The notes beneath the pieces are model-generated. The model was not told the DNA's origin. It did no database searches and saw only the letters and a program-made list of their open reading frames with translations. A stretch of DNA of 63,552 nucleotides from a virus (taxonomy: Duplodnaviria; Caudoviricetes), in IMG/VR virus record IMGVR_UViG_3300037458_000177, positions 1 through 63,552 of that record; one strand, written 5' to 3'. Below, one piece after another: positions 44,923 through 63,025 of the stretch; the stretch's first letter is position 1; every line of letters starts with the position of its first letter. The position numbers were made by a program, and so were the translations under genes.

Positions 44923-45232
44923 AATAGGTATGCGGTTTAACGATGATAAGCCGCAGCTTAATTACGTATTGACTGGCAAGCATGCGCTTGCTGGACTCGC
45001 GGCGGTAATGCAGTATGGGGCAACCAAGTATTCCAGAAATAACTGGCGTAAGGGGTTGCCTCATACAGAGATTGTTGATAGCATGATGCGGCATCTAGCC
45101 GCGTATGTGTCTGGCGAGAATAATGATCCTGAAAGCGGACTGCCGCACATAGATCATATTCTATGCAATGCATTCTTCTTAGCGGAGATAGCACGCACTA
45201 AGCCGGAGCTTGATAATCGCGAGGGCGTATAG
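44894..45232 (+). CDS. DUF5664 dATP/dGTP diphosphohydrolase-like protein
   Basis: GMRFNDDKP, YGATKY..NNWRKG, RHL, DPESGLPHIDH..CN. Confidence 0.8.
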   Translation: MKKPVKPSTEIGMRFNDDKPQLNYVLTGKHALAGLAAVMQYGATKYSRNNWRKGLPHTEIVDSMMRHLAAYVSGENNDPESGLPHIDHILCNAFFLAEIARTKPELDNREGV

Positions 45233-45297
45233 CTCAATGGTAGAGCAGGAGACTCATAATCTCTTGGTTGTAGGTTCGAGTCCTACTGCGCCCACCA
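45223..45297 (+). tRNA. tRNA with CAT anticodon, most likely tRNA-Ile2 (lysidine-modified, reads AUA)
   Basis: Full cloverleaf: GGGCGTA/TGCGCCC acceptor, GGAGA-CTCATAA-TCTCT anticodon arm, GTTCGAG T-loop, encoded CCA; lacks initiator features. Confidence 0.9.
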
Positions 45298-45549: not shown

Positions 45550-45786
45550 CTACTTATCTACTGGATCAACTGGGCCGATTATACCGACAGGTACGTAGTT
45601 CGCTGTATCCATATAGGCCAGCGGACCTTGATCCAGTTCGACATAATCCCACTTGGTAAAAACTTGGATGCTGTTGTTTTCACCAATGATATATTTAACA
45701 TTGCCGTCGAAGTCGCTCATTACGGCGGCACCTTGGAATACAACACGCATGCCGTTTACTCGATACTTTACTCGTTGAAGTTTCAT
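45550..45786 (-). CDS. Hypothetical protein
   Basis: ATGA coupling; last late gene. Confidence 0.6.
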   Translation of the reverse strand: MKLQRVKYRVNGMRVVFQGAAVMSDFDGNVKYIIGENNSIQVFTKWDYVELDQGPLAYMDTANYVPVGIIGPVDPVDK

Positions 45787-48686
45787 TGTTGATCCTTAAA
45801 TGCATTCCATTGGGCGAGTGTCTGCGCTCGCATTAGTTGACGTGTTTCCATAAGCACTCGGATTCGATCGGCCTTCTCCTGCTCTGGAATATTAGATGCA
45901 CGTACCGCATCAATAGCTTTATTGATCTTGCGATCATAACTTCTGACTTGCTTATCAAGACCCACACTAAGGCGCGGGCCTTGTTCCATCGGTAAGCCTT
46001 CATCGGTGATAACTTTATACCGTTTCTTGCCAAGACTCCATTCTCGTCGAGCTTCGCTGAATACACGCTGCGGGTAGTAGATCGCATCCTTGGTTTGCAG
46101 CGTAGGCATCAACGGGATATCAACCGCAGTCAGCGGATCACCGCGAAGAACTTTATCATTCCACGTAGCCATGCGATGCGCAGTTGTACCAAGCACGCCC
46201 GTATATTGGGTAAGATTATGCTTCAAAGATTCTGGTGTGAAATCTCCGAATTCACCAAAACTATCGTATAGAAGTTTCGACAAACTCTTATACATCTGGT
46301 CCGTGTTATCCCGACCCTGCATATATTTAGGCGTATCTTTATCTATATACGGATTCCAGATTTGAAGCCCTTGTGCTGTGGTATTAACTCTTGATTCCCA
46401 TATCGGGCGAGCCAGCGACGGAACTAGAGTCATACCGAACGCAGTCATTACACTTTCGGCATTGATCGAATCGCCGGGATCGGCAGGCGCGACAAAGGTA
46501 GTATTGTCCAGTGCAGTTTTTACAGCAGCAATGAATGCCTTGGTTTCTGTAGTATGCCCGAGCAGCAATCTTGCAGTAAGAATACCCGGCATGGCAAGTA
46601 CAGTCTCCATGCCTAGTGCACGGGGCAATACGTAGAGCGCACCGTTATCCCCTAATATGGGAATAACTGAGTTGCGGATCAGCGTATAATCATCTACCTT
46701 CTTCAGTTCATCTTCGCCATCGTCGCCTTCGCCGAGCACCATGTTGGCAAGCATGTATGCCATAGCAGTTGATCCTGCATACATGGCAGCAAGCGCGCCC
46801 ATCATGGCGGGATTTTCTGCGCGTAGAAATGTCTGGAACATACGGAACACGCCAGCCGCAGCGGGTCCGTAGAAGATATATGCGGTACGTAGCCACTCGC
46901 CATACTTACCACGATAGTTGAAGTTCATTAGATTCTTGACGTAGATCGCAGCAGTCTGCTCATCCATACGTCCAGATTCAACTATCGCCTTGAACAGTGC
47001 TACGCGGGTAGACAGATCAACGCCATTGATAAGCCCTTCGTAATACTCATTAGCTTTACTGAGCTTACCTTTTACGCCAGTCTGGCCGATAGCTGCCAAA
47101 TACATTTCATCCATCTTCTCGCGGATGGATTGGATATCCAGACTTTGCAGGAACGTACTCTCGCCGCCTAACGCAGAGAGTTTGTTCGCCCACTTGGCAT
47201 ACACCGAACCCTGCATTTCAAGCTGCTGCTTACCAAGATAATCTCTAGTATGATAGCCTAGCGCATCCTTAAAACCGCCAAAGGCTAGCACGTTTTGGAG
47301 ATACTTCTTGGAGATTCCAAAGTCGTACTTACCATCTTTATACCCGAGATCAAGCGTGCCATAGATAAGCTGGTTACGAAACTCACGGATGAAGTTCGTG
47401 TAGAATACCCACGGCGCATTGTACTTTGTCTTGAGATTGCCGATAGGGCGGATCGTATATTTATAGATTGAGTTAGCAATGTCACTCGTATGTAGCCACT
47501 GATTCTTCAGGCCGACAAATAGATCAGGGTCTTTGATCTCAATTACATGAGATACGTCACCTTCCTGTACTACAATCGTATTCGGCTTACGTGCAATACG
47601 CCCGCCGGGCGGACGCTTACCAAGAGAATCGTGCTTGATCGTAGTCGTGTTGTAGGTATCTATAACTTTGGCATTAGCCAGAGTCGGGCCATACATATCA
47701 ATGACGCCCTTGATCGCATGCGCAACCTCGGCTTCATAGAGTTTCTTACCCGAACGCAGTAGATCGAACTGAAGTTGTTCAATCATATCGTTGGAGAGTT
47801 TAGTCTTACCCTTCAACTCTTGGTCAGTATTGTCATTCAGATAGCCCGTGCTTTCCCAGACATCAAAGTCATCGAAGAAACTTTCCAGATCCTCTACCTG
47901 CGGAGACTTAAACGGCATGTAATGCTGCCAGCCCATATACCCACGCACGAAATCTTTGATCGGGCCATTAGCTCCCGACTGCGAACGCCGACGATTTAGC
48001 TCCTCACGAATCGCAGCAAACTTCTCATAGTGCTGCTCGTAGAACCGACCGTATTCAGGATTCATTGCGCCGAGATACATTTCCGCATCGGCCCAAGTTT
48101 GGCCTTCGTAGTCTAGTTGATCTTTGTATGCGCCAGATTCGCCTTCCTTAAAATACTTTACGGCATTATCTGGGTCGAGCAATTCCGCCCGCATTTCCAG
48201 AAGCTCTTGCAGTCTACGCTGATTCTCTTGGGGCGTATTCTTCGGCACAAGAATAGCGTATTCTTCGCGCCTTATACGAAGCAAGTCACGAAGCTCGTTA
48301 CCTTCTTTCGTAAAATGTTTAGCGGCAGACTTACGACGGATTAGAAACTCCTGCGTGCGTTCGATGATTTGAAGCATACGGATATGAGTAGATACGCCAG
48401 ACTTGAAATCTTTCCAGTCTTGCCCAAGCTCCGTGGCCCGATCAAACATGGCCTTATTCATAGGCTCAATATAAACTGCGATATCAGCATCCTGCTGGTT
48501 CGACGCTTTGCCTTGCACCGAATCATTTAGAACTTTAACATTTAGGTGCGCAGGTATAGGTATGCCAGTTAAAGCCGCAAGTCTATCTAGCCACGAATCA
48601 ATGCGCGCGGTACGATCTGAAAACAGCGTGGATGCATGATCCATCGCACGCCGAGCTTTCATATTAAGTGAACATGCAGTAGCCAT
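45783..48686 (-). CDS. Large internal virion (ejection) protein with LPD38-like C-terminal domain
   Basis: VKNLMNFNYRG...YIFYGPAAAG, P.LARPIWE...N, FTPE...H....YTG.LG motifs; TAATG coupling puts the start at 48686. Confidence 0.75.
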   Translation of the reverse strand: MATACSLNMKARRAMDHASTLFSDRTARIDSWLDRLAALTGIPIPAHLNVKVLNDSVQGKASNQQDADIAVYIEPMNKAMFDRATELGQDWKDFKSGVSTHIRMLQIIERTQEFLIRRKSAAKHFTKEGNELRDLLRIRREEYAILVPKNTPQENQRRLQELLEMRAELLDPDNAVKYFKEGESGAYKDQLDYEGQTWADAEMYLGAMNPEYGRFYEQHYEKFAAIREELNRRRSQSGANGPIKDFVRGYMGWQHYMPFKSPQVEDLESFFDDFDVWESTGYLNDNTDQELKGKTKLSNDMIEQLQFDLLRSGKKLYEAEVAHAIKGVIDMYGPTLANAKVIDTYNTTTIKHDSLGKRPPGGRIARKPNTIVVQEGDVSHVIEIKDPDLFVGLKNQWLHTSDIANSIYKYTIRPIGNLKTKYNAPWVFYTNFIREFRNQLIYGTLDLGYKDGKYDFGISKKYLQNVLAFGGFKDALGYHTRDYLGKQQLEMQGSVYAKWANKLSALGGESTFLQSLDIQSIREKMDEMYLAAIGQTGVKGKLSKANEYYEGLINGVDLSTRVALFKAIVESGRMDEQTAAIYVKNLMNFNYRGKYGEWLRTAYIFYGPAAAGVFRMFQTFLRAENPAMMGALAAMYAGSTAMAYMLANMVLGEGDDGEDELKKVDDYTLIRNSVIPILGDNGALYVLPRALGMETVLAMPGILTARLLLGHTTETKAFIAAVKTALDNTTFVAPADPGDSINAESVMTAFGMTLVPSLARPIWESRVNTTAQGLQIWNPYIDKDTPKYMQGRDNTDQMYKSLSKLLYDSFGEFGDFTPESLKHNLTQYTGVLGTTAHRMATWNDKVLRGDPLTAVDIPLMPTLQTKDAIYYPQRVFSEARREWSLGKKRYKVITDEGLPMEQGPRLSVGLDKQVRSYDRKINKAIDAVRASNIPEQEKADRIRVLMETRQLMRAQTLAQWNAFKDQQ

Positions 48687-51364
48687 TAGGTACACTCTAT
48701 CTGTGGGCCAGCAGCAGGAAAGTCTTTATTGTCGTCCAGCAGTTGCCACTGTTGCGGTACGTTAGGATTCTCAATGCCTTGAGCTTTTAGGCCAGCTTCG
48801 TGCTTTTTCCACCACCGATTAAATTCTGGAATCTCTTTACGCAAGATATCGGTTGGCGTTGTCGTATCAGCAAGCCATTCGCCTATTGTAATGTCGCTAC
48901 CGCCTGTAGGAAATCCTGCTCGGTCTTGGATTTTTCCGCTACTGATAGCATCTTTGCGAAGTCTTTCGCCGCTATCGAATCCTTCTCTTCCTTCGACAGC
49001 ATTAGATGCGTCCGTAGCGTTTCTCTGACGCTCTCCAGTACGTCGGGCGTTAGCTCCGGCATCTGCGACGCCGCCGCCTTCTCCCTCATGTATAGACTTC
49101 GCAGAGTTTTTTGTAGTGGATTCATTGTATTTGTCGCGGAGATCATTGAATAGCCCCTCATATTTTTTCAAGATTCTTGCGAGCTGAACTCGCATTTCGA
49201 TATCAAACCCATCAGCAGCTAGACGAGAATCAAGTTCGTGGAATTCCGAAACAAAATCAGTACCGTGATCTCGGTGGACAATATGGGTAAACTCATGCAC
49301 CATTGTATCATACAAGCCCTTAACAATGCTAGGCAAAGTTTGCCCTTTCACAGCCAAAGGATTTATGAACGACCCCTGCATTGGTACAATAATATTTACG
49401 CCGTGATATTGCTTGTCGATAGACACGCCGACAAAGTACGGCATCTTATCTTTTACAACACTGCGATTAAGTATGTCATACCCCCACAAGGAAGTACTCT
49501 GCGAAAGCTCGCCAATCTTATCTCGCACGGCAAGCATCGCGCTTCCCATTTCTGCAAAGAATACATCTGCAAGAGGATCGACGCTGCTGTAGTCTATGTT
49601 AGTGTTATTATGCAGTACGGGCAAGTCCGCGTCAATCCCGATATCAAGTAAGAAATCGGAAATCTTTGGAGCATCTACCGTTGTCTCCATACCAGAACTA
49701 TAGTTCTTTTCGCTTTCACGATCAACCATAGTCTCTGTAGTACCATCTTCATAGCGACCAGTAACTTTGCCGTTAGAGATATCGATACCTACCGGGATAG
49801 GAATGTCCGGCATTTCTTCTGGAGGTTTATTCTGTGGACGCTGGCGAATGAACGAATCCAGATCTACATTTCCAGAAATATCCATATCGATGCGCGGCAG
49901 TGCCCGCATATTTCTGAAGGTATCTACAACGCCCTCTGCTTCTCTGCCAGAAGCAACCCGCTTTAGATAGTCACTAAGAAGCCCTATGTCATCCTTTACG
50001 TTTGCCTTCCAACCTTCGCGCTTGATATCAAACGGATACGTAGGAGAGTCCGCTTTTACTGAAGGGCGTACATTGATGTAGATATCATATGGGATTTTCT
50101 CCCACCCCTTAATATTAAAAGCATGCTCAAACTGGTACACGCCCGAACTAAGAACGTAGTGCTGGGCAAGATAGGACTCTTTATGTCGAGACGTACCAAT
50201 GAAAATATCAGCTTGCCCCCATGAGAATGTAGCGGTAGTATGCTGGGTAAATCCCGACATATCTGCGTACTTGCCCATTGGCACAAAGGAACCCCGCTCC
50301 CATATGTCGGCATTTGGGTTGATGATAACTTCGGGGTCAAGTCGGAAAGACCGATTGAACGATATAGCTACCCGGCTATCAAGTAGTGGCTTCTTAAAGA
50401 ATTCAATAGCTGAAGCATTTGAGGGGAACCAAACATACTTCTCTTCTCCGTTCACCATAATCTTATCAGGAACTTTGACAATGATGACTGTTCCGTGGTC
50501 GGTTTTACCGACCGGAGTTTCTTCGATAGGGAAACCCTTGGAGAAGATATCTTCACTATTTACGCTAAACGTACTGTTCGTTCCACCACGTTGGGTATTG
50601 ACCCATATCCGTTCGTTACCAAGAAGAAACGCGGCTTTAGCCATACCAAAGCCACCACCGGCTGTCTCGCCTTTTGCAAGACCTGCTTTTTCTGTACCTG
50701 CAAGAGTCAAGAAAGCATTACGTATCGTGGCAGGAGTCATGCCCCTACCATTGTCTCGTATCGCGATCAGTCGGTTAGTCGGATCAATCAGAACATCAAT
50801 CCGGCCTTCTGCTTCTAGTCCTTCAGCAACAGATGCCCGTACTGCGTCAAACGAATTCTGGATAAGTTCTTTAACAGAAACGTCGGCAAGATTACCCGCA
50901 TACATTTGTGATCCGATAAGCTGAAGTAGCCTATCGAGGTTCGCATTTCCTTTAGCTCGCTTAGTTGCCATTAGACCCTGCCCAGCCTTAGCCGCTTTTT
51001 CAGCTTCAGCAAGTACAGTTTCCACAGTAGCGTATTCTTTCTTCGCCAGTAGATCAAGCGTAAACATATACTGTGGTATCGTAAGATCACCGCTAGAGTA
51101 CAAGTCTTTAGCGCGAGTGCGCAACTTTTGTACATCTTCCTTGGAGTAATCTTCCTCTACTGTTTCCCCAAGTTTAGTATCTACGTCGATAACTACTAGC
51201 TCACTCGGCGGCGTACTCTGTGCTTCGAGAACTTGGTCAATCGCATCTACAGTTTCGTCAGTTGTAGGAACTAGCGTAAGTCCCTGCAGTAATTCCGTTG
51301 TTTCTGGTTCCGGTATAGTTGGGGTCGGCCCTGAGCTAAGAAGTTCTTGCTCAGGGCTTACCGT
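48686..51364 (-). CDS. -1 frame extension of the upstream ejection protein: GHKL ATPase plus HExxH metallopeptidase (892 codons)
   Basis: Frame stays open 240 nt above the TTG at 51124, up to the slippery site; KELIQNSFDA, IRDNGRGM, GGGFGMAK; HEFTH..HRDHG..F. Confidence 0.8.
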   Translation of the reverse strand, partial: TVSPEQELLSSGPTPTIPEPETTELLQGLTLVPTTDETVDAIDQVLEAQSTPPSELVVIDVDTKLGETVEEDYSKEDVQKLRTRAKDLYSSGDLTIPQYMFTLDLLAKKEYATVETVLAEAEKAAKAGQGLMATKRAKGNANLDRLLQLIGSQMYAGNLADVSVKELIQNSFDAVRASVAEGLEAEGRIDVLIDPTNRLIAIRDNGRGMTPATIRNAFLTLAGTEKAGLAKGETAGGGFGMAKAAFLLGNERIWVNTQRGGTNSTFSVNSEDIFSKGFPIEETPVGKTDHGTVIIVKVPDKIMVNGEEKYVWFPSNASAIEFFKKPLLDSRVAISFNRSFRLDPEVIINPNADIWERGSFVPMGKYADMSGFTQHTTATFSWGQADIFIGTSRHKESYLAQHYVLSSGVYQFEHAFNIKGWEKIPYDIYINVRPSVKADSPTYPFDIKREGWKANVKDDIGLLSDYLKRVASGREAEGVVDTFRNMRALPRIDMDISGNVDLDSFIRQRPQNKPPEEMPDIPIPVGIDISNGKVTGRYEDGTTETMVDRESEKNYSSGMETTVDAPKISDFLLDIGIDADLPVLHNNTNIDYSSVDPLADVFFAEMGSAMLAVRDKIGELSQSTSLWGYDILNRSVVKDKMPYFVGVSIDKQYHGVNIIVPMQGSFINPLAVKGQTLPSIVKGLYDTMVHEFTHIVHRDHGTDFVSEFHELDSRLAADGFDIEMRVQLARILKKYEGLFNDLRDKYNESTTKNSAKSIHEGEGGGVADAGANARRTGERQRNATDASNAVEGREGFDSGERLRKDAISSGKIQDRAGFPTGGSDITIGEWLADTTTPTDILRKEIPEFNRWWKKHEAGLKAQGIENPNVPQQWQLLDDNKDFPAAGPQIECT

Positions 51365-51387
51365 TTTGGGGAGGCAAGTTTTCCTCC
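51328..51387 (-). other. Programmed -1 ribosomal frameshift signal
   Basis: GGAGG (51387-51383), 12 nt, C CCA AAA (51370-51364), 6 nt, GCCCTGAGC...GCTCAGGGC hairpin (51357-51328). Confidence 0.85.
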
Positions 51388-54057
51388 AACTCTAGTTTGA
51401 ACTTTAGTTCGGTTCCGCTTCGGTTTAGTTGTTTCCTGTTCCTGCATAAGAGTATCAGAATACTCTTGGTCGAATGGATCGACGTTTGGCGCAAACGCTT
51501 TAGCCTGATTAAGAATCTCTTGCGCCCGATCCAGCGATTGCGGAGTACCCTCATTTAACAGGCGTAAGAATTCTTTAGCCGCTTCTGGCTCAAGCGGCAA
51601 GTCCATATTAGGTTCGGCAGGTGCATTTACACCAACTTCTGAGCCGATACCGGGAGGACTGAATCTAGCGCGTTGATCTTCTGTAAGCCCTTGACCCAAT
51701 CCTAAATCTGGACCCAGCATGTTTGGCGGCTGACTAAACAGCTCACGTTCTGCTGGCGAAACGCCGAAGCCTAGATCATTGCCCGGTCCATTTATACCCT
51801 GCTGAATCCCGCGACGCTGTTGGTCGGTAAGCCCTTGGCCCAATCCTAGATCAGTACCAGTGCTGGGCATACTGCGCAGCACATTACGTTGCTGATCGCT
51901 GATCCCGAATCCAAGATCAGACGTATATGGTGAGATACCATAGGCGCGACTATAGTCTGCATCAACGCGCGTAAATTCATTATTTAGTGCAGTCTCAAGC
52001 GCACCCGGCTCCATACCTCTAGCAGTCGGTACAGTAACATATGTAGCCATATGTTCTGCGTAAGCACTTGCCTGTTCGTCAGACAAGCCGCGAATCTTAG
52101 CAGAGCGGAATGCGTAGTTGCGTATCGTATTGCGAATCTGAGTAGTAGCCGCTCGCCCTACCTCCATAGCAGCTTCTATTCTACCGAGAGTTTCTCTGGC
52201 AGATTTCTGCTCTTGCATCAGTACGTCAGATACTTCTTGGTCCGACCCATCAAATACAACTTCTGCAACTTTCTCCGCAATCTGCTCGGGCTTTTTTTCC
52301 GCAGTAGCCGCAGCTTTTTCAGCAGTTTCTATAGTAGCAAGTAATTCTCGAACTTGGGTAGCTACTTCAGCAATAGGCGGCGCTGCACCCGTAGTCTGAT
52401 TAGTAGCTACTTGTGCTGCCTGTTGTTGCTGTTCGGTAGGTGCACTAGCCGCAACAGGCGCGGCTGTGGGCGCAGTTGTAGCCGCTGCCGGGGTTACGGC
52501 TGGCTCACCAGTTGCCGCTGCTGTGGGCGTTCCTGCGGGCGCTGCCGTAGCCGCAGGCTGGGCAGTTTGACCCTGCTGACCCGCCAAAGATTGCTGTACG
52601 AAGCCGGGAATTGCCTGCATTAACTCAGGCGTACCCCGGATAGCAGGCATATTCTCTAGCTGCTTTGTCAACCAACCAGCAGGATCGGGTTTCTTTGGCG
52701 CAGCCGCAATCGCTACGTTAATAAGATTCTGTAGATCGGGAATCTTAGCTGCCCGTGCGGCAATAGGATTACCTGCGCCAGCAGCCGGGGGCGCATTTGG
52801 ATCAACAGGTTTAGGCGCGTTGGGATCAGCAGGCCCGCCACCGGGAATACCTGCAAGAGTACCAATTACGCCGCCAGTAACCATACCAACAACGCCTTGC
52901 TTTTGCGTAGCTGGGTCAGTAAACCTTTCTCCAAAGCTACGTTGGTCCCCCATAGCTGCGGCTTCACCAGCAGCTTGACCAGTTTCCTGTCCGTATTCTT
53001 GCCCAGCCTCAAGCCCACCAGCAGCAGGCACACGCTTATAGAAAGGAAGATTCTTGAGCGAAGGAATCTTACGGAGCGCAAGCGTATATTCTGCAATCGG
53101 GATAGTGCCTAATGCAGCAGCGGCCCATATCTCAGGCTGCTTGAGAACTTCAGCTCTAGCTTCCGCAGCTTTAGCTTCGTCGCCAGTATTTTGCAGTACC
53201 TGCTGATATACGCTATTCTGAATACCGCCAACTTCACCCAAAGACATTGTGCTGGCAATACCTGTAGCCTGCGCGCCAGCTTCAGTAACTTTGCGTAGGC
53301 CAGGAATCTTAGCAGCTTGCGCGCCGATCTTACTGGCAGCACCAGTAGCTGCCAGTAACTTAGCTGCGCCTTTTACGCCTAGTGAAGCGCCAAAGCCGCC
53401 GCCAAGAAACTCACCCCCAAAATAAGCCATAAGATCGGGGTTAGTTCCAATAAACTTGCCAACCTCAATCGCGCTGACGGTATCATCGTCAATCATCCTC
53501 TTTAATTCAGTAGCCCGCATTTTTACATCTTCGGGCGTAAATTCTTGCTTCAGACTTTCGCCGGCAGCAGAAATAGCTGGGCCGTATTTATCTGAGCCAA
53601 ACAAAGTCATCAAATCGCCGGGAAGTTTTACAAGTCCGCCCGCAGCGGCAGCCGCAGTAGTCTGCGCGAACTCTCCAACTTCACCGGCAGCCTTTCTGAA
53701 AGCACCTTGTTCTTTAGGCTTTTCCGGCGCTACTGGTTGTGCAGGCGCATTCGGATCGGGAGCAGGAACCCCGAGAATTTGGTCACGTACAGCTTTAGCC
53801 TGCGCTACTGCCGCCGGATCAGCCATAGGATCAGATATCAATTGGTTCAGCGCACCAAGATTCTTTGGACCCCAGCCACCAGCAGCAGTAGTATTTGTAG
53901 CAAGACGCTGTTCCCGCTGCATATCCATAAGGAACTTAGCATACTCACTCTTTGCTTGGGAATCGGCAGCGCGCTGATTTGCGTCGCGCAGCGCAAGGCT
54001 AGAACCGGGGTGCGTAAGAGCAACGCTATCTTCGGGAATACCATACGGATTAGCCAT
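51358..54057 (-). CDS. Large internal virion (ejection) protein, 899 aa; N-terminal half of a predicted 1790-aa frameshift fusion
   Basis: Ala/Gly-rich helical segments (EAGQEYGQE), Pro/Ala linker; lies among internal virion genes. Confidence 0.75.
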   Translation of the reverse strand: MANPYGIPEDSVALTHPGSSLALRDANQRAADSQAKSEYAKFLMDMQREQRLATNTTAAGGWGPKNLGALNQLISDPMADPAAVAQAKAVRDQILGVPAPDPNAPAQPVAPEKPKEQGAFRKAAGEVGEFAQTTAAAAAGGLVKLPGDLMTLFGSDKYGPAISAAGESLKQEFTPEDVKMRATELKRMIDDDTVSAIEVGKFIGTNPDLMAYFGGEFLGGGFGASLGVKGAAKLLAATGAASKIGAQAAKIPGLRKVTEAGAQATGIASTMSLGEVGGIQNSVYQQVLQNTGDEAKAAEARAEVLKQPEIWAAAALGTIPIAEYTLALRKIPSLKNLPFYKRVPAAGGLEAGQEYGQETGQAAGEAAAMGDQRSFGERFTDPATQKQGVVGMVTGGVIGTLAGIPGGGPADPNAPKPVDPNAPPAAGAGNPIAARAAKIPDLQNLINVAIAAAPKKPDPAGWLTKQLENMPAIRGTPELMQAIPGFVQQSLAGQQGQTAQPAATAAPAGTPTAAATGEPAVTPAAATTAPTAAPVAASAPTEQQQQAAQVATNQTTGAAPPIAEVATQVRELLATIETAEKAAATAEKKPEQIAEKVAEVVFDGSDQEVSDVLMQEQKSARETLGRIEAAMEVGRAATTQIRNTIRNYAFRSAKIRGLSDEQASAYAEHMATYVTVPTARGMEPGALETALNNEFTRVDADYSRAYGISPYTSDLGFGISDQQRNVLRSMPSTGTDLGLGQGLTDQQRRGIQQGINGPGNDLGFGVSPAERELFSQPPNMLGPDLGLGQGLTEDQRARFSPPGIGSEVGVNAPAEPNMDLPLEPEAAKEFLRLLNEGTPQSLDRAQEILNQAKAFAPNVDPFDQEYSDTLMQEQETTKPKRNRTKVQTRVGGKLASPKR

Positions 54058-57064: not shown

Positions 57065-57586
57065 TTACACTACCTTATAGATTTCATCTCGCAGTTGCTT
57101 GCTGTGTTCGCGCGCAAATGCAGCTCCACCAAAACAGAATGCCGCCGCGCTGCAAACTTCAAGCCACGAATTTTGAGTAGCAAACACCATAAAGCGTACT
57201 GTCTGAGAATCTTGCGTCTGTTGCTCTAGCACATACTCTACGCTATCAATCCACGTATTGATCGAATTCATCAAGATAGGATGTAAGTATCCTCGAAACG
57301 TAGCGTAGAATTGATTTGTCTCGAAGCCAAAAGCTAGATCATTTAGTGCACGAAGTAATGCCGCGCTGTTGGGCGCACCTACAACCAGTGATCGATAGGC
57401 TGCGAACAACGATACCACGCTCGCAATGAATTCACAAGCCGAACCATATCGACCCTCAGTTACTTCCCGCTCTTCCTTGCGCTCAATTGGAACCGCATCC
57501 AATACAGGACGCAAAGTTCTAGCTACAATCGCACGTACATTGACGTGCAATTCATTCGCGTATTTTACTTGTTCTCGGTAGTTCAT
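57065..57586 (-). CDS. Hypothetical protein
   Basis: 173 aa, GGAG RBS; follows the nozzle gene. Confidence 0.65.
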   Translation of the reverse strand: MNYREQVKYANELHVNVRAIVARTLRPVLDAVPIERKEEREVTEGRYGSACEFIASVVSLFAAYRSLVVGAPNSAALLRALNDLAFGFETNQFYATFRGYLHPILMNSINTWIDSVEYVLEQQTQDSQTVRFMVFATQNSWLEVCSAAAFCFGGAAFAREHSKQLRDEIYKVV

Positions 57587-59376
57587 CGGGATTCTCCATT
57601 AAGTTCTGTCATAGAAGTAGCGATATGAACTTCATCTATGTATGCTTCGCCTTCAAGCTCAAACACCCAATTAGTCGCTTTATACAGGTGCGGTAGTCGG
57701 AAGGGTTCGTTACCATATACATTTATTTCGCACCTAAGTGCCCCATCACCAAACAGACGAAAAATTACCGAACCCATACCGTCAGGTATCGAAGCGTAGT
57801 TTTTGGTAAAGGTGATCTTTGCCGCAGCAAAAGTAGTAGGCGCTCGGGTCACAAAGGTTTTACTGCGCCATACATATCTTGCAGCTTCTCCTAGTTGTTC
57901 TGGGCGTTCCAGCCCGCTCCACTCATATAAGTTAGTTCCCTCGTACGGAGCATCGAAGATAAACAACCTATCACGCCCGTAGACCATACTATATAGGCCA
58001 GGCACAGGATTAGGACGCGCAGGAATAATCTGACTATCGACGTAGACTAGCTGACCGAATTGCGTCTGCCCCGAAATCTGGTCGGGCACGTCCATAATCC
58101 AGTTTTCGCCGCCCGCTGTTCCTACTCCAATATAATACCCTTCAGCCCAACCAGCGATTGTTGGCGCAAAGATAGTATTCCACTGTTGCGGAAGGATCAT
58201 ATCTTTAGTAACCAGCACTTGCTGATCCCGGCTAAGCGCGACCAGTCCTCGGGGCGAACTATACAGTGCACCAAAGTTTGTACCCACAAGTGCCCGCGCA
58301 GCTTCAGCAGCGTACCTATCTGGATAGCGTTGTACGTCAAAACTAATCCCCGCCGCATCTGGACGTACTGTTACTTTGTAGGCAGAGTTATTCCTACACG
58401 TAACGATAAGCATATCATAGTATGCAACCATACTCGATATGCTTTCGGGGATCGTGATCTGATTCCGCAGTGGAAACGCATGGAACATAAACCGTTCGGA
58501 GATACTGATAGTTCCATCGACGTATGCTATTGCCAGATAGCCAGCATCAAGCTGCACCATAGCAACCGCATCGATCTGCCTTGGATTAAAAAACTCTCTA
58601 CTGAGCAGTAGATCGCCCGGTATGGTATGCGTCGGGATGTCATCGACAAACACAAACGATGATGGAGTGTATGCGAACTCCGTCACCAAAAGAAAATCAG
58701 TATTCAGTTTATTGCCTAGTTCTTCACCAGATTCATACTCACTTGCGGTGCGGTATAGCCGAATTTTTGAGATCGGGTATAGTCCGGTAGGAGGATTAGC
58801 GAAGCTAGGATTGATACTGATCGATATCGAGTCGCCTTCAAAACAGTATATATCTGCGCTAATAGTGCCGGGGGTAGATTCTTCCCCAAACATATTTACG
58901 TATGTAGCGCAGTACCTACGTGCGGTAGGATACTTACTGCGTTGTTGGGGCGAAACGCCTTGGTTAACACAGGCAGGGCCGGGCGGCACTCCAAGAGCGC
59001 GAGCAGTTGTTCCGCTGTAATCCGTACCGCGAATTACTGAAGCAGCAATTGAGAATGTACGAAGGCTAAGTTGATATGGATATCCTGTGTATGCGTAGTT
59101 GTATGCGTTTTGATTTAGCATCCTTGTTAGAATTGGGTACTGCCCTTCAGCGGCAGATGTAAACAACGTATTTTCTACGCTGTCGTATCCAAGCTCACCA
59201 TTAAACTTAATAGCCGGATAGGTAGACTGGTTTATAAAATTAAGCCTCTTAAACGGCTGCAACTTACCATTCAGCAATCTACAGTTCCGCGCGTAGGATG
59301 CATTTCCATTGGGCAATAACTTAACGTCTACTGCTGGAATCATGCCTCCGAAGGATGTCACATGGATAGCGGCCAT
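57583..59376 (-). CDS. Tail nozzle / tail tubular protein B-like (stabilisation protein)
   Basis: FGGMIP...LLP...A..ARNC, Y.ATYVN.FGEES.P, IRLYRT, YSSPRGLV, WRSKTF, FRLP motifs. Confidence 0.75.
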   Translation of the reverse strand: MAAIHVTSFGGMIPAVDVKLLPNGNASYARNCRLLNGKLQPFKRLNFINQSTYPAIKFNGELGYDSVENTLFTSAAEGQYPILTRMLNQNAYNYAYTGYPYQLSLRTFSIAASVIRGTDYSGTTARALGVPPGPACVNQGVSPQQRSKYPTARRYCATYVNMFGEESTPGTISADIYCFEGDSISISINPSFANPPTGLYPISKIRLYRTASEYESGEELGNKLNTDFLLVTEFAYTPSSFVFVDDIPTHTIPGDLLLSREFFNPRQIDAVAMVQLDAGYLAIAYVDGTISISERFMFHAFPLRNQITIPESISSMVAYYDMLIVTCRNNSAYKVTVRPDAAGISFDVQRYPDRYAAEAARALVGTNFGALYSSPRGLVALSRDQQVLVTKDMILPQQWNTIFAPTIAGWAEGYYIGVGTAGGENWIMDVPDQISGQTQFGQLVYVDSQIIPARPNPVPGLYSMVYGRDRLFIFDAPYEGTNLYEWSGLERPEQLGEAARYVWRSKTFVTRAPTTFAAAKITFTKNYASIPDGMGSVIFRLFGDGALRCEINVYGNEPFRLPHLYKATNWVFELEGEAYIDEVHIATSMTELNGESR

Positions 59377-59378
59377 AA

Positions 59379-60872
59379 TTATACAACATCCGAGACTGCC
59401 ACGCAGTTAATAGTTCCAGAAACTACCTGAGAACCAGTAGGAGTAGTGGACCGGATATCGATAACGCCGCCGGGATATGTGGTCACGATTGCGCTGATAT
59501 TCTTCTGTCCGCTCTTGAATGCAGGTAGGACGGTATGCGCAACACCGTTCACATAGATACCAATCGAGAAAGATTGATTGTATTCGTCCGCCCCCGCAGT
59601 CGGGTCACTAAACACTACGGTAGCATTGACGAGCACAAAATCGGCCAGATTTACCAGCGCAGTTTGAACCACATTAGTAAGCGCCGGACCAGTAAGCGAC
59701 CCAGTAGTAACTACATGAGTAACAAAACTACCGAGACTATTCAGCGCGACTTTCAGTTTTGCTGGCGTAAGCACCCTATCGACAGTGCTAAAGTTAGCCG
59801 CTTCAGAGTTATCAGCGATCTCGACTAGACCCTGCACTGCTTCAGAAGCTGCGCCGATAGCAATAGTGCGGATACCAGTACCGCCGCTACTGATCGTAAC
59901 GCCGGGAGTGCTAGTAGTAATTGAACTAATTGGTCCGAACCCGCCCGGCAAGGTAACTATCTGGCCTTGCGCGTTGATCTGTACGCCTTCATAGCTACCA
60001 GCAACTACACCAGTATTTGCAATACCAACGGTGGGCGTACTTGTCGGAACGCCAGAGACTGCGATACCAGTACCGGCATTGACGATGGTAACTGTACCGG
60101 AACTGATAGGTGCATCAGGAATAGCACCAGTAGCCACGGCAGTAATAATGCCGTTAGCAACAGTGATCTGTGGATTAGTAAAGACTCCGTTAGGGAGCGC
60201 AGTCGTAACTACTTCCATTACTCGGCCAGTATTCGACACGCGAATACCGGAGATTACTCCGGTCGCACTAAGTCCCGCACCGAAGGCATTACCGCCGCCT
60301 ACAGTTGGAAAGATATTACTTAGCGAAATCAACGGAGTTGTCGTAGTATTCGTGATACCGAAATCTGCCGTACCTGTAACACTGGTTACAGTGCCGCCAA
60401 CCGGGGGCGAATAGCCGGGATCAAGTCCGATAGTAAAGTTCGGATAGGTGCCTGTAAGCACCAGATTTGCTCCTGCGCTATACATAGGAAAATCTACGTT
60501 GAATACGGCAGGCCCGCCAGTAATAGCGCCTACGATATTCGACGTAAATGTAACGGAGGCACCGATTGCCGCCGCTTCTTCTTGAACGCCATTGGCAGTC
60601 CACACAAAGCGAATCGAAGTTCCGTTAGGAAACGACGCTGCGGTAGTTCCCGCTTGCGCGCGTGTAATGCTTACCGAGCTTCCTACAACTTGGTTAAGTT
60701 GCACAATCTCAAAACTTACGCCGTCGGAAAGCGCTGCTTCGGTATAATTAGTACCGTCGATACCGAGCGTAGTCAAAAAAGATATAGCCCCGGCAGGAAG
60801 CGTTACGCTAGTCGAAGCCGGAGTTATGCCCGCGCTCAGATTGGAAAAGAAAGATTCTGCTGACTTAAACAT
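59379..60872 (-). CDS. Tail fibre protein
   Basis: N-terminal EIV...ITRAQAGTTA.SF..G anchor, GTVTSV repeats, ASEAVQGLVEIA. Confidence 0.75.
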   Translation of the reverse strand: MFKSAESFFSNLSAGITPASTSVTLPAGAISFLTTLGIDGTNYTEAALSDGVSFEIVQLNQVVGSSVSITRAQAGTTAASFPNGTSIRFVWTANGVQEEAAAIGASVTFTSNIVGAITGGPAVFNVDFPMYSAGANLVLTGTYPNFTIGLDPGYSPPVGGTVTSVTGTADFGITNTTTTPLISLSNIFPTVGGGNAFGAGLSATGVISGIRVSNTGRVMEVVTTALPNGVFTNPQITVANGIITAVATGAIPDAPISSGTVTIVNAGTGIAVSGVPTSTPTVGIANTGVVAGSYEGVQINAQGQIVTLPGGFGPISSITTSTPGVTISSGGTGIRTIAIGAASEAVQGLVEIADNSEAANFSTVDRVLTPAKLKVALNSLGSFVTHVVTTGSLTGPALTNVVQTALVNLADFVLVNATVVFSDPTAGADEYNQSFSIGIYVNGVAHTVLPAFKSGQKNISAIVTTYPGGVIDIRSTTPTGSQVVSGTINCVAVSDVV

Positions 60873-60883
60873 TTCTAGCTCCG

Positions 60884-61273
60884 TTAAGATGGATTCTCGT
60901 CCATAGATGGCGCGTTACCAGTAACTGCGTATAGCCCGCTAACGTGGCATGGTCTGCCCAGCCGCAACGTAAAGTACGGTTTACACGCAAGATTGTTGAC
61001 GTACACTGTAGCGGAATACAGTCCGCTAGACAAGGCGTACAAATTACTGTCAACGAAGAATCCGATATTACCTTCGTTATCCCGGTTGAAAGCAGGATAT
61101 TCAATCACTGTTCCGCTATCTTCTCCCTTACGAGTAATGCGGAGTACAACAGCGGTCAGAGGGGTATTTGGATTCACGCATCCGCAATCCGAACCGCCAC
61201 GTACCGCAAAGTACAGAATACGAACGGTAGGGTTGATATCAACGATCTTCGTTTTTACTCTCACGCAACTCAT
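60884..61273 (-). CDS. Hypothetical virion protein
   Basis: 129 aa, ATGA coupling. Confidence 0.55.
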   Translation of the reverse strand: MSCVRVKTKIVDINPTVRILYFAVRGGSDCGCVNPNTPLTAVVLRITRKGEDSGTVIEYPAFNRDNEGNIGFFVDSNLYALSSGLYSATVYVNNLACKPYFTLRLGRPCHVSGLYAVTGNAPSMDENPS

Positions 61274-61905
61274 ACGAATCGCCTCGCAGCAATCTTCATC
61301 GGTCCACGAATGCGGGATCGCTCGACCCGCTGTCTTGCGTTGACTTTACCCTGCTTAAACTTGAACTCAAATAGTCGTGCGCTATTGGCATCGTAAAACG
61401 GTTGCCCTGCAATCATTAGACAGCGAGCAATCGCCCCCATCGCAATTGGCTCTGCCCAATCCTGATATAACTCTTCAGGCATAAAGCAAGAATCTTGCGA
61501 TACCGCAACAACAATCTCTACAGTGAGTGCTTCAGGTTCATCATACGCGGGTGCTTCCCCAATACGAAGCGCGCCATCCTGATACCAGAATGTATTGCCG
61601 CCAATAGAGCAGCATTTAGGTTCGTAGGCAGGGCAGTATCGAGTCTGTTCGCCGTAGCAAACTTTACGCAGCGCGATAAATCGCATGCAGTCGTAGACAT
61701 CAATCGGATATTCCGTAACGTCTTTCTGAAGATCGACAAGATAAGTCTGAGTTAGAATACCCGAATATTCTGTAAATTCAATTGCTGCTAGACGTATGTT
61801 ATGAACCAGTAGTTCAGCAGGAATGCCCATACAGGCAGGCTGCATGAATGGGATGAGGCTATCCCATCCGCGCGAAGTTTGGACGTTAATTAACTCGCAT
61901 GCCAT
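61270..61905 (-). CDS. Head-tail adaptor / tail tubular protein A-like
   Basis: IRLAAIEF, LYQDWAEPIAMGA...PFYD. Confidence 0.7.
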   Translation of the reverse strand: MACELINVQTSRGWDSLIPFMQPACMGIPAELLVHNIRLAAIEFTEYSGILTQTYLVDLQKDVTEYPIDVYDCMRFIALRKVCYGEQTRYCPAYEPKCCSIGGNTFWYQDGALRIGEAPAYDEPEALTVEIVVAVSQDSCFMPEELYQDWAEPIAMGAIARCLMIAGQPFYDANSARLFEFKFKQGKVNARQRVERSRIRGPMKIAARRFV

Positions 61906-62603
61906 TACCTTCTCCTACCGGGGGCAAGCATCGTCCCATTATGCAGCGACTGATCCGCTTTTGCCATTGTATCCATTAGCTTGTAGAAATCGGCGCGATG
62001 CTGCATAGCAAGTTTGAAAGAACTCTCGCTTTCCTGATCGACTTCGTATGCCCGCGCCTGCATCCACGACACAATAGCTTGATGATATTTAGTGCCAAAC
62101 GGAATAGCTGCTATCGATCCCGGCGTAGCGAATTGCGGAGTTTCGCCGCGATAAGTTCCCTGTACCGAAACAGAAACTCCACCGGGAATACTTGGATAGA
62201 TGAACCATTTCGTGGGATTAGCAGCTTCATACGCCCAATTGTACGGACGATAGAATGGTGCCGTAAGACATGATGCCCGATAGAAAGACTTAGCAAACGC
62301 TAGGTCTACTCTAGTGAGCGGTACTTGATCCGGGCATCCGGCTACAGTAGCATAGTCTACCGAAATCAACTCGGTAATTCCCGAGGGTAAACTTTGCAAA
62401 GTACCGAATGCAGTTGGCAAAAGCCCCGACGTGATAAGCACGTCAGGGCGAAGATTAGAAACTTGAATCAGCGCGTCGTTCAGATATTCTAGTAAATCTT
62501 CTCGCGGCCATCTAAAATAAGCTGGCGCTGAACTACCAGAATCATCTTGGTCATTCAGTTGCCTCGAAACTTCCAAGATGATTCCGCTGACTGTATTGTC
62601 CAC
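61905..62603 (-). CDS. Head-tail adaptor-like virion protein
   Basis: QLND...RWPREDLLEYLNDA.....RPD, FIYP, ARAY..D.E. Confidence 0.7.
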   Translation of the reverse strand: MDNTVSGIILEVSRQLNDQDDSGSSAPAYFRWPREDLLEYLNDALIQVSNLRPDVLITSGLLPTAFGTLQSLPSGITELISVDYATVAGCPDQVPLTRVDLAFAKSFYRASCLTAPFYRPYNWAYEAANPTKWFIYPSIPGGVSVSVQGTYRGETPQFATPGSIAAIPFGTKYHQAIVSWMQARAYEVDQESESSFKLAMQHRADFYKLMDTMAKADQSLHNGTMLAPGRRR

Positions 62604-62606
62604 AAG

Positions 62607-62963
62607 TTACTCTCCCACAGCATCAAGCCCCGAAAGAAGCTGCGCCGAAATATCTGCGACTTTAGTGTCGCGATTTGCTGCTGCTTCTGGCAGCGGCGGA
62701 TTCAGAAGAGACTTATCAATCGACCCGGCGAGATCATTAACTTTCTCGACCTGCGGTGCCTTCTCAATCTCTGCTGTAGTATCAGGTGGCGCAGGAATGA
62801 ACCCCAACGGCTTATCCTGAATGTGAACTTCTTTGGAGAATTCGACAACAGTGTAGTTCGGATTGTTTGCCAGTGCCGCCATGTACGGATAGACGATACC
62901 GTTAGTGTGGCGAAGATACTTTACACCGGGCTTAAACTTGGCAGAAAATTGCGGAGTTTTCAT
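62607..62963 (-). CDS. Hypothetical protein
   Basis: GAGGA RBS, 118 aa. Confidence 0.65.
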   Translation of the reverse strand: MKTPQFSAKFKPGVKYLRHTNGIVYPYMAALANNPNYTVVEFSKEVHIQDKPLGFIPAPPDTTAEIEKAPQVEKVNDLAGSIDKSLLNPPLPEAAANRDTKVADISAQLLSGLDAVGE

Positions 62964-62984
62964 TTTCTTTCCTCATAGAGAAAT

Positions 62985-63014
62985 ACATAGGGGGAGTGTA
63001 TACTCCCCCTATGT
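62985..63014 (-). terminator. Hairpin after the capsid/decoration genes (partial terminator or mRNA stabiliser)
   Basis: ACATAGGGGGAGT-loop-ACTCCCCCTATGT with a weak U tail. Confidence 0.65.
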
Positions 63015-63025
63015 GGTTTACTTTC

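What the first reader, a model, noticed from the sequence alone, without database searches (positions are those of the whole stretch)
51328..51387. Complete three-part -1 frameshift cassette inside a putative ejection-protein gene
Seen: the minus strand reads GTT GGA GGA AAA CTT GCC TCC CCA AAA CGG TAA GCCCTGAGC AAGAACTTCTT A GCTCAGGGC. This gives an internal SD (GGAGG) 12 nt before an in-frame X XXY YYZ heptamer (C CCA AAA), a 6-nt spacer containing the 0-frame stop, and a perfect 9-bp GC-rich stem with a further short stem on top. The -1 frame has a TAG only ~30 nt upstream, so any shift must fall in this narrow window. That frame is then open for 892 codons, including 80 protein-like codons (TVSPEQELLSSGPTPTIPEPETTE...) above the weak TTG start called by the ORF track. 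Established: SD plus slippery heptamer plus hairpin is the dnaX/IS3-type -1 architecture; the familiar phage cases are tail assembly chaperone, capsid and tail-tube genes. Inference: an 899-aa and a ~1790-aa isoform (junction ...GKLASPK/TVSPEQ...) are made in a fixed ratio. I do not know of this being described for a podovirus ejection protein.
Basis: partly seen in the sequence, partly recalled or inferred. Interest (0 to 1): 0.9.

Follow-up and report, generated by a model that had tools for sequence, protein, structure and literature searches.

The report
Conserved frameshift arms phage virion protein
In an uncultured wetland phage, a large virion-module gene ends on a ribosome slip site and an RNA hairpin that a diverged relative also keeps, so some ribosomes very probably slip back one base and attach an 891-residue ATPase and protease module that has no start codon at its own beginning.

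Summary
On the minus strand, ORF A (899 aa) ends GGAGG-N12-C_CCA_AAA-CGG-TAA, followed by a 9-bp stem, a bulged A and a 4-bp stem.

The -1 frame opens 21 nt before the heptamer. It runs 892 codons, and the first 80 hold no ATG, GTG or TTG.

It is not an assembly error. Two independent assemblies match exactly, and a 94%-identical contig from another study spans the junction with no gap.

A metagenome relative, L007, whose B protein is 57% identical, keeps the same heptamer, a 6-nt spacer, the TAA and the hairpin design. Four of the 11 stem pairs changed on both sides and none is broken.

Six further A homologues stop at the same point, ending in ...PK...PKS or ...KKK.

ORF B is a GHKL ATPase plus an HExxH module. 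In most relatives that module sits inside single giant proteins with a median length of 2,625 aa.

Best reading, about 0.8: a programmed -1 frameshift makes A and a 1,790-aa A-B fusion. The upstream SD is not conserved, and no expression data exist. My literature searches found no such case in print. AI notes from this scan report similar frameshift-added cargo on other phage DNA.

The parts
51358..54057 (-). ORF A, 899 aa, the 0-frame product. It is Ala/Gly/Pro-rich, has two moderately hydrophobic conserved segments (residues 310-328 and 388-406) and a basic C-terminal tail.
   Evidence: No Pfam, PHROG or PADLOC family. Six homologues of 922-962 aa.
51383..51387 (-). SD-like GGAGG with 12 nt between it and the heptamer. 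It can also pair with CCUCC (51374-51370).
   Evidence: Not conserved in L007, which has AAGG 10 nt upstream.
51392..51394 (-). Last stop (TAG) of the -1 frame before the slip site. It bounds a 31-nt overlap window.
   Evidence: L007 has a TAG at the same aligned column.
51364..51370 (-). Slippery heptamer C_CCA_AAA in the frame of A.
   Evidence: Identical in L007 at 162-168.
51358..51360 (-). 0-frame stop TAA, the last 3 nt of the 6-nt spacer.
   Evidence: Same place in L007 (172-174).
51328..51357 (-). Stimulatory hairpin: 9-bp lower stem, bulged A at 51337, 4-bp upper stem and a 3-nt loop.
   Evidence: z = -5.0. L007 has the same design (z = -3.5). 11 shared pairs: 7 invariant, 4 changed on both sides, 0 broken. 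No terminator-like site. No Rfam family.
51125..51363 (-). Linker of 80 codons in the -1 frame with no start codon and no stop.
   Evidence: The X4 variant has third-position changes at 51140, 51143, 51170 and 51197 (my arithmetic).
48686..51363 (-). ORF B read in the -1 frame, 892 codons from ACG. It holds a GHKL ATPase (about 50534-50881) and an HEFTH zincin motif (49283-49297).
   Evidence: HATPase_c_3 scores 41.2 bits against a cut-off of 25. WLM scores 22.9 bits, below its cut-off of 26. The N-domain of Hsp90 is the nearest solved relative, E about 3e-4.
45783..48686 (-). ORF C, LPD38-containing. Its ATG (48686-48684) overlaps the stop of B as TAATG.
   Evidence: L007 has the same TAATG junction. 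C matches the C-terminal ends of 17 of 148 giant B-module proteins.

Best explanation
This is a programmed -1 ribosomal frameshift site at the end of a large virion-module gene.

Most ribosomes read C_CCA_AAA CGG and stop at TAA, which gives the 899-aa protein A.

A fraction of ribosomes are paused by the hairpin that starts 6 nt downstream. On these, the Pro and Lys tRNAs slip back one base (CCA to CCC, AAA to AAA). The ribosome then reads on through 892 codons and makes a 1,790-aa A-B fusion with the junction ...LASPK/TVSPEQ....

B is a GHKL-type ATPase followed by an HExxH metallopeptidase-like module. It has no start codon at its beginning, so it reaches the cell, and probably the virion, mainly as a C-terminal extension of A.

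Shown: the signal, its reality in the DNA, its conservation with compensatory stem changes, the start-less open frame, and the fact that relatives carry the B module inside single giant ORFs.

Inferred: that shifting actually happens, its efficiency, that A and A-B are packaged and ejected, and that the ratio matters.
For: 1. The anatomy is complete: heptamer, 6-nt spacer with stop, and hairpin with z = -5.0 and 0 of 200 shuffles as stable. The site is unique among the 244 heptamers of the window.

2. The frame split is real. X1 and X2 contigs are identical, and a 94%-identical X4 contig spans the site with 0 gaps.

3. L007, whose B protein is 57% identical over 100% of the query, keeps CCCCAAAA-NN-GTAAGCCC. 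That is 16 of 18 identical, the best 18-nt window in an alignment that is 79 of 172 identical overall.

4. The L007 hairpin has the same design. All 22 of 22 cells pair across 11 shared pairs. Four pairs changed on both sides, against 0-1 when the partners are slid by 1-3 columns. Two of the changes, CCU to CCC and UCA to UCG, are synonymous in the B frame and pair with each other (my reading).

5. The -1 frame is stop-free from the heptamer to B. In the window that is 80 codons, against 7 and 6 stops in the other frames, P about 0.012. In L007 it is 39 codons to the first GTG, against 2 and 2 stops.

6. All 6 other A homologues (922-962 aa) stop at the same place, ending ...APK...APK...RPKS (three times) and ...NKKK. 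The window ends ...SPKR and L007 ends ...PPPKS.

7. The B profile finds 1,691 proteins at E <= 1e-3. The 148 best representatives have a median length of 2,625 aa, 127 are at least 1,500 aa, and the module starts hundreds to thousands of residues in.

8. L002, L003 and L004 carry the module in single ORFs of >=1,432, >=2,167 and 2,315 aa.

9. The neighbouring junctions in the same operon use ordinary ATG starts: TAATG for B/C and an ATG for A.

10. There is no terminator-like site here.
Against: - Only one relative could be read at DNA level. Covariation therefore rests on two sequences, and 24 of 500 shuffles reach the observed values.
- GGAGG is not conserved in L007.
- A TTG at 51124 is preceded by AAGGAAG 11 nt upstream. 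Most invariant residues of the conserved B block start at that codon; only D76 is invariant in the 30 aa before it. Some independent initiation of B therefore cannot be excluded.
- L007 has a GTG and an ATG inside its linker.
- No longer protein related to A was found (weak evidence). A shows no BLAST or HMM similarity to the N-terminal parts of the giant proteins.
- No efficiency value for C_CCA_AAA was found in the one paper I searched for it.
- The host and its tRNAs are unknown.
- There is no proteomic, ribosome-profiling or reporter evidence.
Confidence: 0.8

Rival explanations
1. B is made only by independent initiation, at the TTG at 51124 or the ATG at 51067 that the gene caller chose. 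On this view the 237 nt after A's stop are an untranslated spacer, and the hairpin serves another purpose such as mRNA stability, processing, or lowering translation of the downstream gene.
For: AAGGAAG lies 11 nt before the TTG. The gene call on record (P0003, 793 aa) starts at the ATG. Most invariant columns of the B block begin at the TTG codon. Some B-family proteins begin close to the module, for example P0018 and P0022.
Against: The spacer is stop-free only in the B frame (0 stops against 7 and 6, P about 0.012). The in-frame heptamer is letter-identical in a relative whose flanking protein sequence is otherwise hardly alignable. All A homologues end in PK or KK just before the stop. X4 differences upstream of the TTG include 4 of 7 at third codon positions of the B frame and none creates a stop. 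The ATG has no SD-like sequence.
Confidence: 0.1
2. An ancestral single giant gene suffered a 1-nt deletion in this lineage. The split is merely tolerated: B is lost or made only by low, unselected slippage, and there is no programmed signal.
For: Relatives carry the module in one ORF. Homopolymer runs such as CCCC and AAAA are typical indel sites (general knowledge).
Against: B is under clear purifying selection across the split lineage: 57% identity over 891 aa and many invariant catalytic motifs. The hairpin keeps pairing through 4 double changes. The stop, spacer length and heptamer are unchanged. Seven A-family proteins plus L007 share the same end.
Confidence: 0.06
3. The split is a sequencing or assembly artefact, a one-base undercall in CCCC or AAAA.
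For: The window is a metagenome-assembled record. The shift falls in two 4-nt homopolymers.
Against: Two Logan assemblies are identical. A 94%-identical contig from a different study has 0 gaps, and no indel was listed. A separate JGI contig, L007, has the same frame structure. Six other gene calls for A stop at the same place.
Confidence: 0.02

Closest known systems
-1 frameshift extensions of phage virion proteins: T7 gene 10A/10B, and the Lactobacillus phage A2 major head and major tail proteins (Garcia et al. 2004 and Rodriguez et al. 2005, seen only as reference-list entries; the rest is recalled)
   Same: A slip site near the 3' end of a structural gene gives a minor, C-terminally extended form of a virion protein.
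   Different: Those extensions are short decoration-type or structural segments of capsid or tail proteins. Here the extension is 891 aa with two enzyme-like domains. The carrier is a large protein with no family match that sits among internal-virion-protein genes.
Lambda G/GT tail assembly chaperone frameshift (passages of PMC5009743 seen; Xu, Hendrix and Duda 2004 cited there)
   Same: A conserved -1 slip near the end of the upstream ORF, a downstream ORF with no start of its own, and two products linked in ratio.
   Different: The gene position differs: there is no major tail or tape measure context here. Lambda's site is G_GGA_AAG without a strong hairpin (recalled). Neither lambda product is in the virion (passage).
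E. coli dnaX and IS3-family three-part signals: an SD-like element, A_AAA_AAG and a stem-loop (recalled; IS clusters with stem-loops are mentioned in PMC4066793)
   Same: The window has all three parts at canonical spacings: 12 nt upstream and 6 nt downstream.
   Different: The heptamer is C_CCA_AAA. The SD-like part is absent from the one relative. In dnaX the shift truncates the protein, whereas here it extends it.
Giant 'polyvalent' phage proteins with LPD domains (Pfam LPD38/LPD39; Iyer et al. 2017 recalled, not read)
   Same: C carries LPD38 (68.8 bits). The B module is found inside proteins of 2,000-7,000 aa whose C-termini match C.
   Different: In this lineage the protein is divided into three ORFs: A, then the frameshift, then B, then a TAATG overlap, then C.
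MuF-like/VIP2 toxin gene pairs, raised as possible PRF cases in the PRFect paper (PMC10885494, passage seen; fused forms described in PMC7302621, passages seen)
   Same: The idea that a head-internal protein and its enzyme cargo are fused in some phages and may be joined by PRF where they lie in different frames.
   Different: In that paper it is only a remark about 'false positives', with no signal analysis. The protein families are different.

Membership tests
Programmed -1 ribosomal frameshift site (heptamer plus stimulator) | X_XXY_YYZ heptamer in the 0 frame | tested here: met
   C_CCA_AAA at 51370-51364 in the frame of A. Identical in L007.
Programmed -1 ribosomal frameshift site (heptamer plus stimulator) | Stable downstream structure 5-9 nt after the heptamer | tested here: met
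   6-nt spacer. The hairpin has z = -5.0 in the window and -3.5 in L007, with 0 of 200 shuffles as stable in each.
Programmed -1 ribosomal frameshift site (heptamer plus stimulator) | Upstream SD-like stimulator 10-14 nt before the heptamer (dnaX/IS3 subtype only) | tested here: inconclusive
   GGAGG with a 12-nt gap in the window. L007 has only AAGG with a 10-nt gap.
Programmed -1 ribosomal frameshift site (heptamer plus stimulator) | A -1 frame that opens just upstream, has no start of its own at that point, and encodes a conserved protein | tested here: met
   TAG 21 nt before the heptamer, then 80 start-less codons, then a conserved GHKL/zincin protein.
Programmed -1 ribosomal frameshift site (heptamer plus stimulator) | Signal conserved in diverged relatives, with stem covariation | tested here: met
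   One DNA relative: 16 of 18 nt identical, and 4 of 11 stem pairs changed on both sides. Six protein relatives have slip-compatible ends. The sample is small.
Programmed -1 ribosomal frameshift site (heptamer plus stimulator) | The trans-frame protein is actually made | not testable with these tools
   No RNA holder was listed. No proteomics is available.
Lambda-type tail assembly chaperone G/GT | Position between the major tail and tape measure genes, with small chaperone ORFs | tested here: not met
   The ORFs are 899 and 891 aa. The neighbours are SLT, internal virion and LPD38 genes. No tape measure hit among the 28 ORFs scanned against PHROGs.
GHKL (Bergerat-fold) ATPase | Pfam HATPase_c or HATPase_c_3 above the curated cut-off, with N-box, G1 and G2 motifs | tested here: met
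   41.2 bits against 25, and 28.1 against 26.4, at residues 161-276. The ELIQNSFDA, DNGRGM and GGGFGMAK columns are invariant in 3 of 3 sequences. The motif names are recalled.
Zincin (HExxH) metallopeptidase, WLM-like | HExxH plus a family-level profile match | tested here: inconclusive
   HEFTH is invariant in 3 of 3 sequences. WLM scores 22.9 bits, below its cut-off of 26.
Giant polyvalent or internal virion protein of phages | LPD-type domain and one multi-domain ORF of more than 2,000 aa | tested here: not met
   LPD38 is present in C and the B module is internal to giant proteins elsewhere. Here the protein is split into three ORFs, so it works like such a protein rather than being one.
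Ejection or internal virion protein (packaged and injected) | Presence in the virion and release into the host | not testable with these tools
   Context only: phrog_511 internal virion protein (E = 2.9e-57) and an SLT-domain protein upstream. A has no family match.

The most novel reading that the evidence does not exclude
The cassette may work as a Gag-Pol-like loading device in a dsDNA phage. A, a structural or ejected protein, would be made in bulk. A fixed minority of copies would carry the GHKL-ATPase/zincin module into the capsid and then into the host. On this view the same enzymes that relatives carry at 1:1 inside one giant protein are dosed here by ribosomal slippage. Together with the similar, unverified AI notes from this scan on other phages, one of which also reports a CCCAAAA site plus a hairpin, frameshift-gated cargo on packaged proteins would be a recurrent and so far undescribed phage strategy.
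Probability: 0.45. Interest if true: 0.75.

Novelty: new variant of a known kind. Interest (0 to 1): 0.6.

Why it matters
Gene callers split this locus into an 899-aa 'hypothetical' and a 793-aa protein that is truncated at its N-terminus. This hides both the real product and the link between the two ORFs.

If the shift is real, it shows a phage setting the dose of an injected enzyme module by recoding rather than by gene fusion. It also gives a compact natural signal of about 45 nt (51328-51372) that can be tested directly in a reporter.

The finding bears on how giant multi-domain phage proteins evolve through fusion, fission and frameshift-linked intermediates. It also bears on the annotation of uncultured phage genomes.

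Tried and rejected
**Searches that found no close relative**
- INPHARED phages, by blastn and by tblastn with A and with B: no match.
- IMG/VR with B alone and with the A alignment: none.
- GTDB genome contigs with the A alignment: none.
- A searched against longer proteins: none, which is weak evidence.

**Loci fetched but not informative**
- IMG/VR loci L005 and L006 are unrelated GHKL proteins.
- Loci L008-L012, found with P0018, have 1,801-2,229-aa single ORFs with their own starts and no A-like ORF. They say nothing about the frameshift.
- P0022 had no IMG/VR match.

**Tests of other functions for the hairpin**
- Terminator scan: 0 sites.
- Rfam: only a chance snoZ5 match at E = 4.7.

**Attempts to characterise A**
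- PADLOC found nothing for A, B or C.
- Atlas look-alikes of A are unnamed viral clusters, one with LPD22 on 12% of its members. Its Atlas model has a pLDDT of 0.52. This is a lead only.
- BLAST and HMM searches of A against the N-terminal parts of the giant proteins found no similarity.

**A lead I dropped**
- I considered that the cassette sits at a different protein position in L007, because an NTxPES-like helix lies after the site there and before it in the A family.
- The profile match is too weak to say (E = 0.01-0.1 in a 3-sequence search). It aligned instead to a repeated LRTRA...IPxY...LD motif.

**Expression**
- No RNA holder was listed.

**Literature**
- Seven searches found no report of a frameshift in an internal virion, ejection or polyvalent protein.
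- I saw only listings and abstracts, apart from passages of PMC10386132, PMC10885494, PMC4066793, PMC5009743 and PMC7302621.
- Supplements are closed. The PRFect supplementary tables may list comparable predictions.

**Limits of the read-laying result**
- The differences table left 18 differences unshown. I cannot say whether the X4 variant changes the stem.
Full report
**Observation.** The window is a 63,552-bp IMG/VR virus record. On the minus strand the 899-aa ORF A (54057..51358) ends as GTT GGA GGA AAA CTT GCC TCC CCA AAA CGG TAA. GGAGG lies at 51387-51383, followed by 12 nt. The heptamer C_CCA_AAA lies at 51370-51364, in frame with A. The 6-nt spacer CGGUAA holds the stop.

The hairpin follows directly. 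It has a perfect 9-bp lower stem (51357-51349 with 51336-51328), a bulged A, a 4-bp upper stem and a 3-nt loop. It folds at -33.2 kcal/mol against -19.3 ± 2.8 for shuffles, z = -5.0, and 0 of 200 shuffles fold as well.

The -1 frame has a TAG at 51394-51392 and is then open to 48686. Its first ATG, GTG or TTG is the TTG at 51124. The 80 codons in between hold 0 stops, against 7 and 6 in the other two frames; 1.2% of shuffles are stop-free.

Of 244 XXXYYYZ heptamers in the window, only this one joins a long 0-frame ORF that is about to stop to a long open -1 frame.

**Not an artefact.** Logan contigs of two runs that may be the source samples match 50900-51900 exactly. A 604-nt contig from a different study (X4) covers 50984-51587 with 36 substitutions and no gap. 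No insertion or deletion was listed in any of the four runs.

Among the X4 differences shown upstream of the TTG, those at 51140, 51143, 51170 and 51197 fall on third codon positions of the B frame. The other three change V to I and V to Q, and none makes a stop (my arithmetic). Eighteen differences were not shown, so I cannot say whether the hairpin varies in X4.

**Relatives.** The phage database, IMG/VR and GTDB genomes hold no close relative. The protein database gave P0004, which is 57% identical over 100% of B, and P0005, which is 48% identical.

The contig of P0004 could be fetched as L007. It carries the same cassette. Its upstream ORF, which is open at the 5' end, finishes GCA CCG CCC CCA AAA TCG TAA. 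A hairpin follows with an 8-bp lower stem, a bulged A and a 4-bp upper stem. The -1 frame runs from a TAG at 141-143 into the 985-aa B homologue.

When the two junctions are aligned, the -1-frame TAG, the CCCCAAAA and the GTAAGCCC all coincide. That 18-nt stretch is 16 of 18 identical. The 172-column alignment is 79 of 172 identical overall, and most 18-nt windows score 5-9.

On the 11 stem pairs that share columns, all 22 cells pair. Seven pairs are invariant and four changed on both sides: U-A/C-G, G-C/A-U, A-U/C-G and A-U/U-A. Sliding the partners by 1-3 columns gives 10-59% pairing and 0-1 double changes. With only two sequences, 24 of 500 shuffles reach the observed values.

Two of the changes, CCU to CCC and UCA to UCG, are synonymous in the B frame and pair with each other. 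That pattern fits selection on the RNA structure laid over a coding sequence.

The B/C junction is TAATG in both genomes. The layout A, slip site, B, TAATG, C is therefore shared.

**The A family.** Six further A homologues (922-962 aa, 41-51% identical) were found. All stop at the same place. Their ends are ...KKAPK (two)...KKRPKS (three) and ...PNKKK, next to ...ASPKR in the window and ...PPPKS in L007.

A Pro-Lys or Lys-Lys pair within two codons of the stop, in an otherwise variable basic tail, is what a conserved C_CCA_AAA or A_AAA_AAA site would give. No longer protein related to A was found, which is weak evidence.

**What the ORFs are.** A matches no Pfam, PHROG or PADLOC family. It is Ala/Gly/Pro-rich with two moderately hydrophobic conserved segments, and its Atlas model has low confidence.

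B has a GHKL ATPase domain: HATPase_c_3 scores 41.2 bits against a cut-off of 25. Its nearest solved relatives are Hsp90 N-domains at E about 3e-4. It also has an invariant HEFTH motif with a sub-threshold WLM match.

C carries LPD38 and matches the C-terminal parts of the 3,427- and 2,793-position PHROG profiles.

A profile of B finds 1,691 proteins at E <= 1e-3 and 335 at E <= 1e-30. In the listed best hits the module usually starts hundreds to thousands of residues into the protein. The 148 representatives P0017-P0164 have a median length of 2,625 aa, and 127 are at least 1,500 aa. C matches the C-terminal ends of 17 of them.

P0017 (2,945 aa) reads straight through the equivalent of the A/B boundary into the conserved ...LRxxAKxAYxxGDLxIPQY... 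block. IMG/VR loci L002-L004 likewise carry the module in single ORFs of >=1,432, >=2,167 and 2,315 aa.

The A-B-C trio is therefore a divided version of a giant multi-domain phage protein. B is normally an internal module, not a protein with its own N-terminus.

**Genomic context.** Upstream on the same strand lie an SLT-transglycosylase protein and a phrog_511 'internal virion protein' (E = 2.9e-57), then virion structural proteins. The terminase, portal and major head genes are at the other end of the record on the same strand.

I found no tape measure or sheath hit among the 28 ORFs scanned against PHROGs, but I did not establish the tail type. 'Ejection protein' is thus a reasonable context inference and not a demonstrated identity.

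**Mechanism.** The best-supported reading is a programmed -1 frameshift. Tandem slippage of tRNA-Pro and tRNA-Lys on C_CCA_AAA would be stimulated by the hairpin 6 nt downstream, and in this phage possibly by GGAGG 12 nt upstream. The products would be A (899 aa) and A-B (898 + 892 = 1,790 aa).

The stop directly after the site and the -1-frame TAG 21 nt before it confine productive shifting to a 31-nt window that holds only this heptamer.

Functionally this resembles known C-terminal frameshift extensions of phage virion proteins, and in logic retroviral Gag-Pol. A bulk protein and a minority of copies carrying enzymes would be linked in a ratio set by the RNA signal. That part is inference.

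**Rivals.**
- Independent initiation of B at the TTG at 51124 cannot be excluded as an additional route. AAGGAAG lies 11 nt upstream, and most invariant residues of the B block begin there. It does not explain the conserved in-frame heptamer, the covarying hairpin, the stop-free start-less linker or the A-family C-termini.
- A merely tolerated indel is hard to square with 57% identity and invariant catalytic motifs in B across the split lineage, or with stem covariation.
- An assembly error is excluded for practical purposes.
- The hairpin is not terminator-like and matches no Rfam family.

**Comparison with what is known, and novelty.** The mechanism is classical. The window shows the full dnaX/IS3-type three-part layout, but the SD-like part is not conserved, so only the heptamer-plus-hairpin core is supported as the conserved signal.

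It is not a lambda-type tail-chaperone frameshift, because the context and ORF sizes are wrong.

My seven literature searches found no description of a frameshift in internal virion, ejection or polyvalent phage proteins. The nearest printed idea is a remark in the PRFect paper that MuF-like and VIP2 genes, fused in some phages, might be joined by PRF where they are separate (PMC10885494, passage seen).

This scan's own AI notes, which are unchecked, report similar frameshift-added cargo on packaged proteins in several other phages. One of them describes a CCCAAAA site plus a hairpin. The kind of finding has therefore been made before in this scan on other DNA. I tested none of those notes.

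**Verdict.** I rate it a new variant of a known kind, with interest 0.6.

The finding would gain most from two things: the DNA of the six A-family contigs, and any proteomic or reporter test.

Noticed in passing
window 48684-48688 (-) and L007 3240-3244: The stop of B and the start of C overlap as TAATG in both genomes, the layout usual for translational coupling. C therefore has its own ATG, unlike B.
   Followed up: partly
window 51351-51377 (-): A TTG 5 nt after GGAGG opens an 8-codon mini-ORF in the third frame (MPPQNGKP) that ends at a TGA inside the 5' arm of the stem. GGAGG could thus also act as an ordinary ribosome-binding site. This is probably coincidence.
   Followed up: no
window 51370-51387 (-): GGAGG can pair with CCUCC, whose last C is the first base of the heptamer. 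This forms a 5-bp hairpin directly 5' of the slip site. It could mask the SD-like element or act as an upstream modulator.
   Followed up: no
L007 144-150: L007 has a second near-slippery site, C_AAA_AAG, in the A frame directly after the -1-frame TAG, about 17 nt upstream of C_CCA_AAA. A shift there would also be productive.
   Followed up: no
P0012-P0016 C-terminal about 90 aa; window B residues about 80-115; L007 -1 frame residues 207-241: The C-terminal part of the A-family profile (…TLRTRAT…IEPEINPYEQMLDPIAAQEF…) aligns weakly (E = 0.01-0.1) with the conserved start of the B block (LRTRAK…IPQYMFTLDLLAKKEY). This may be a repeated linker-helix motif on both sides of the slip site.
   Followed up: partly
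window 45223-45297 (+): The only tRNA gene found is a single tRNA-Met (CAU), on the opposite strand just beyond the end of ORF C.
   Followed up: no
window 459-1394 (-) and 57583-63552 (-): The major head gene lies at one end of the record, and the remaining virion genes on the same strand lie at the other end. The linear record looks circularly permuted within the structural module.
   Followed up: no
L008-L012: IMG/VR relatives of the C part (33-59% identical to P0018) carry it in 1,801-2,229-aa single ORFs with their own ATG and no A-like 900-aa ORF upstream. This is another way of dividing the giant protein.
   Followed up: partly
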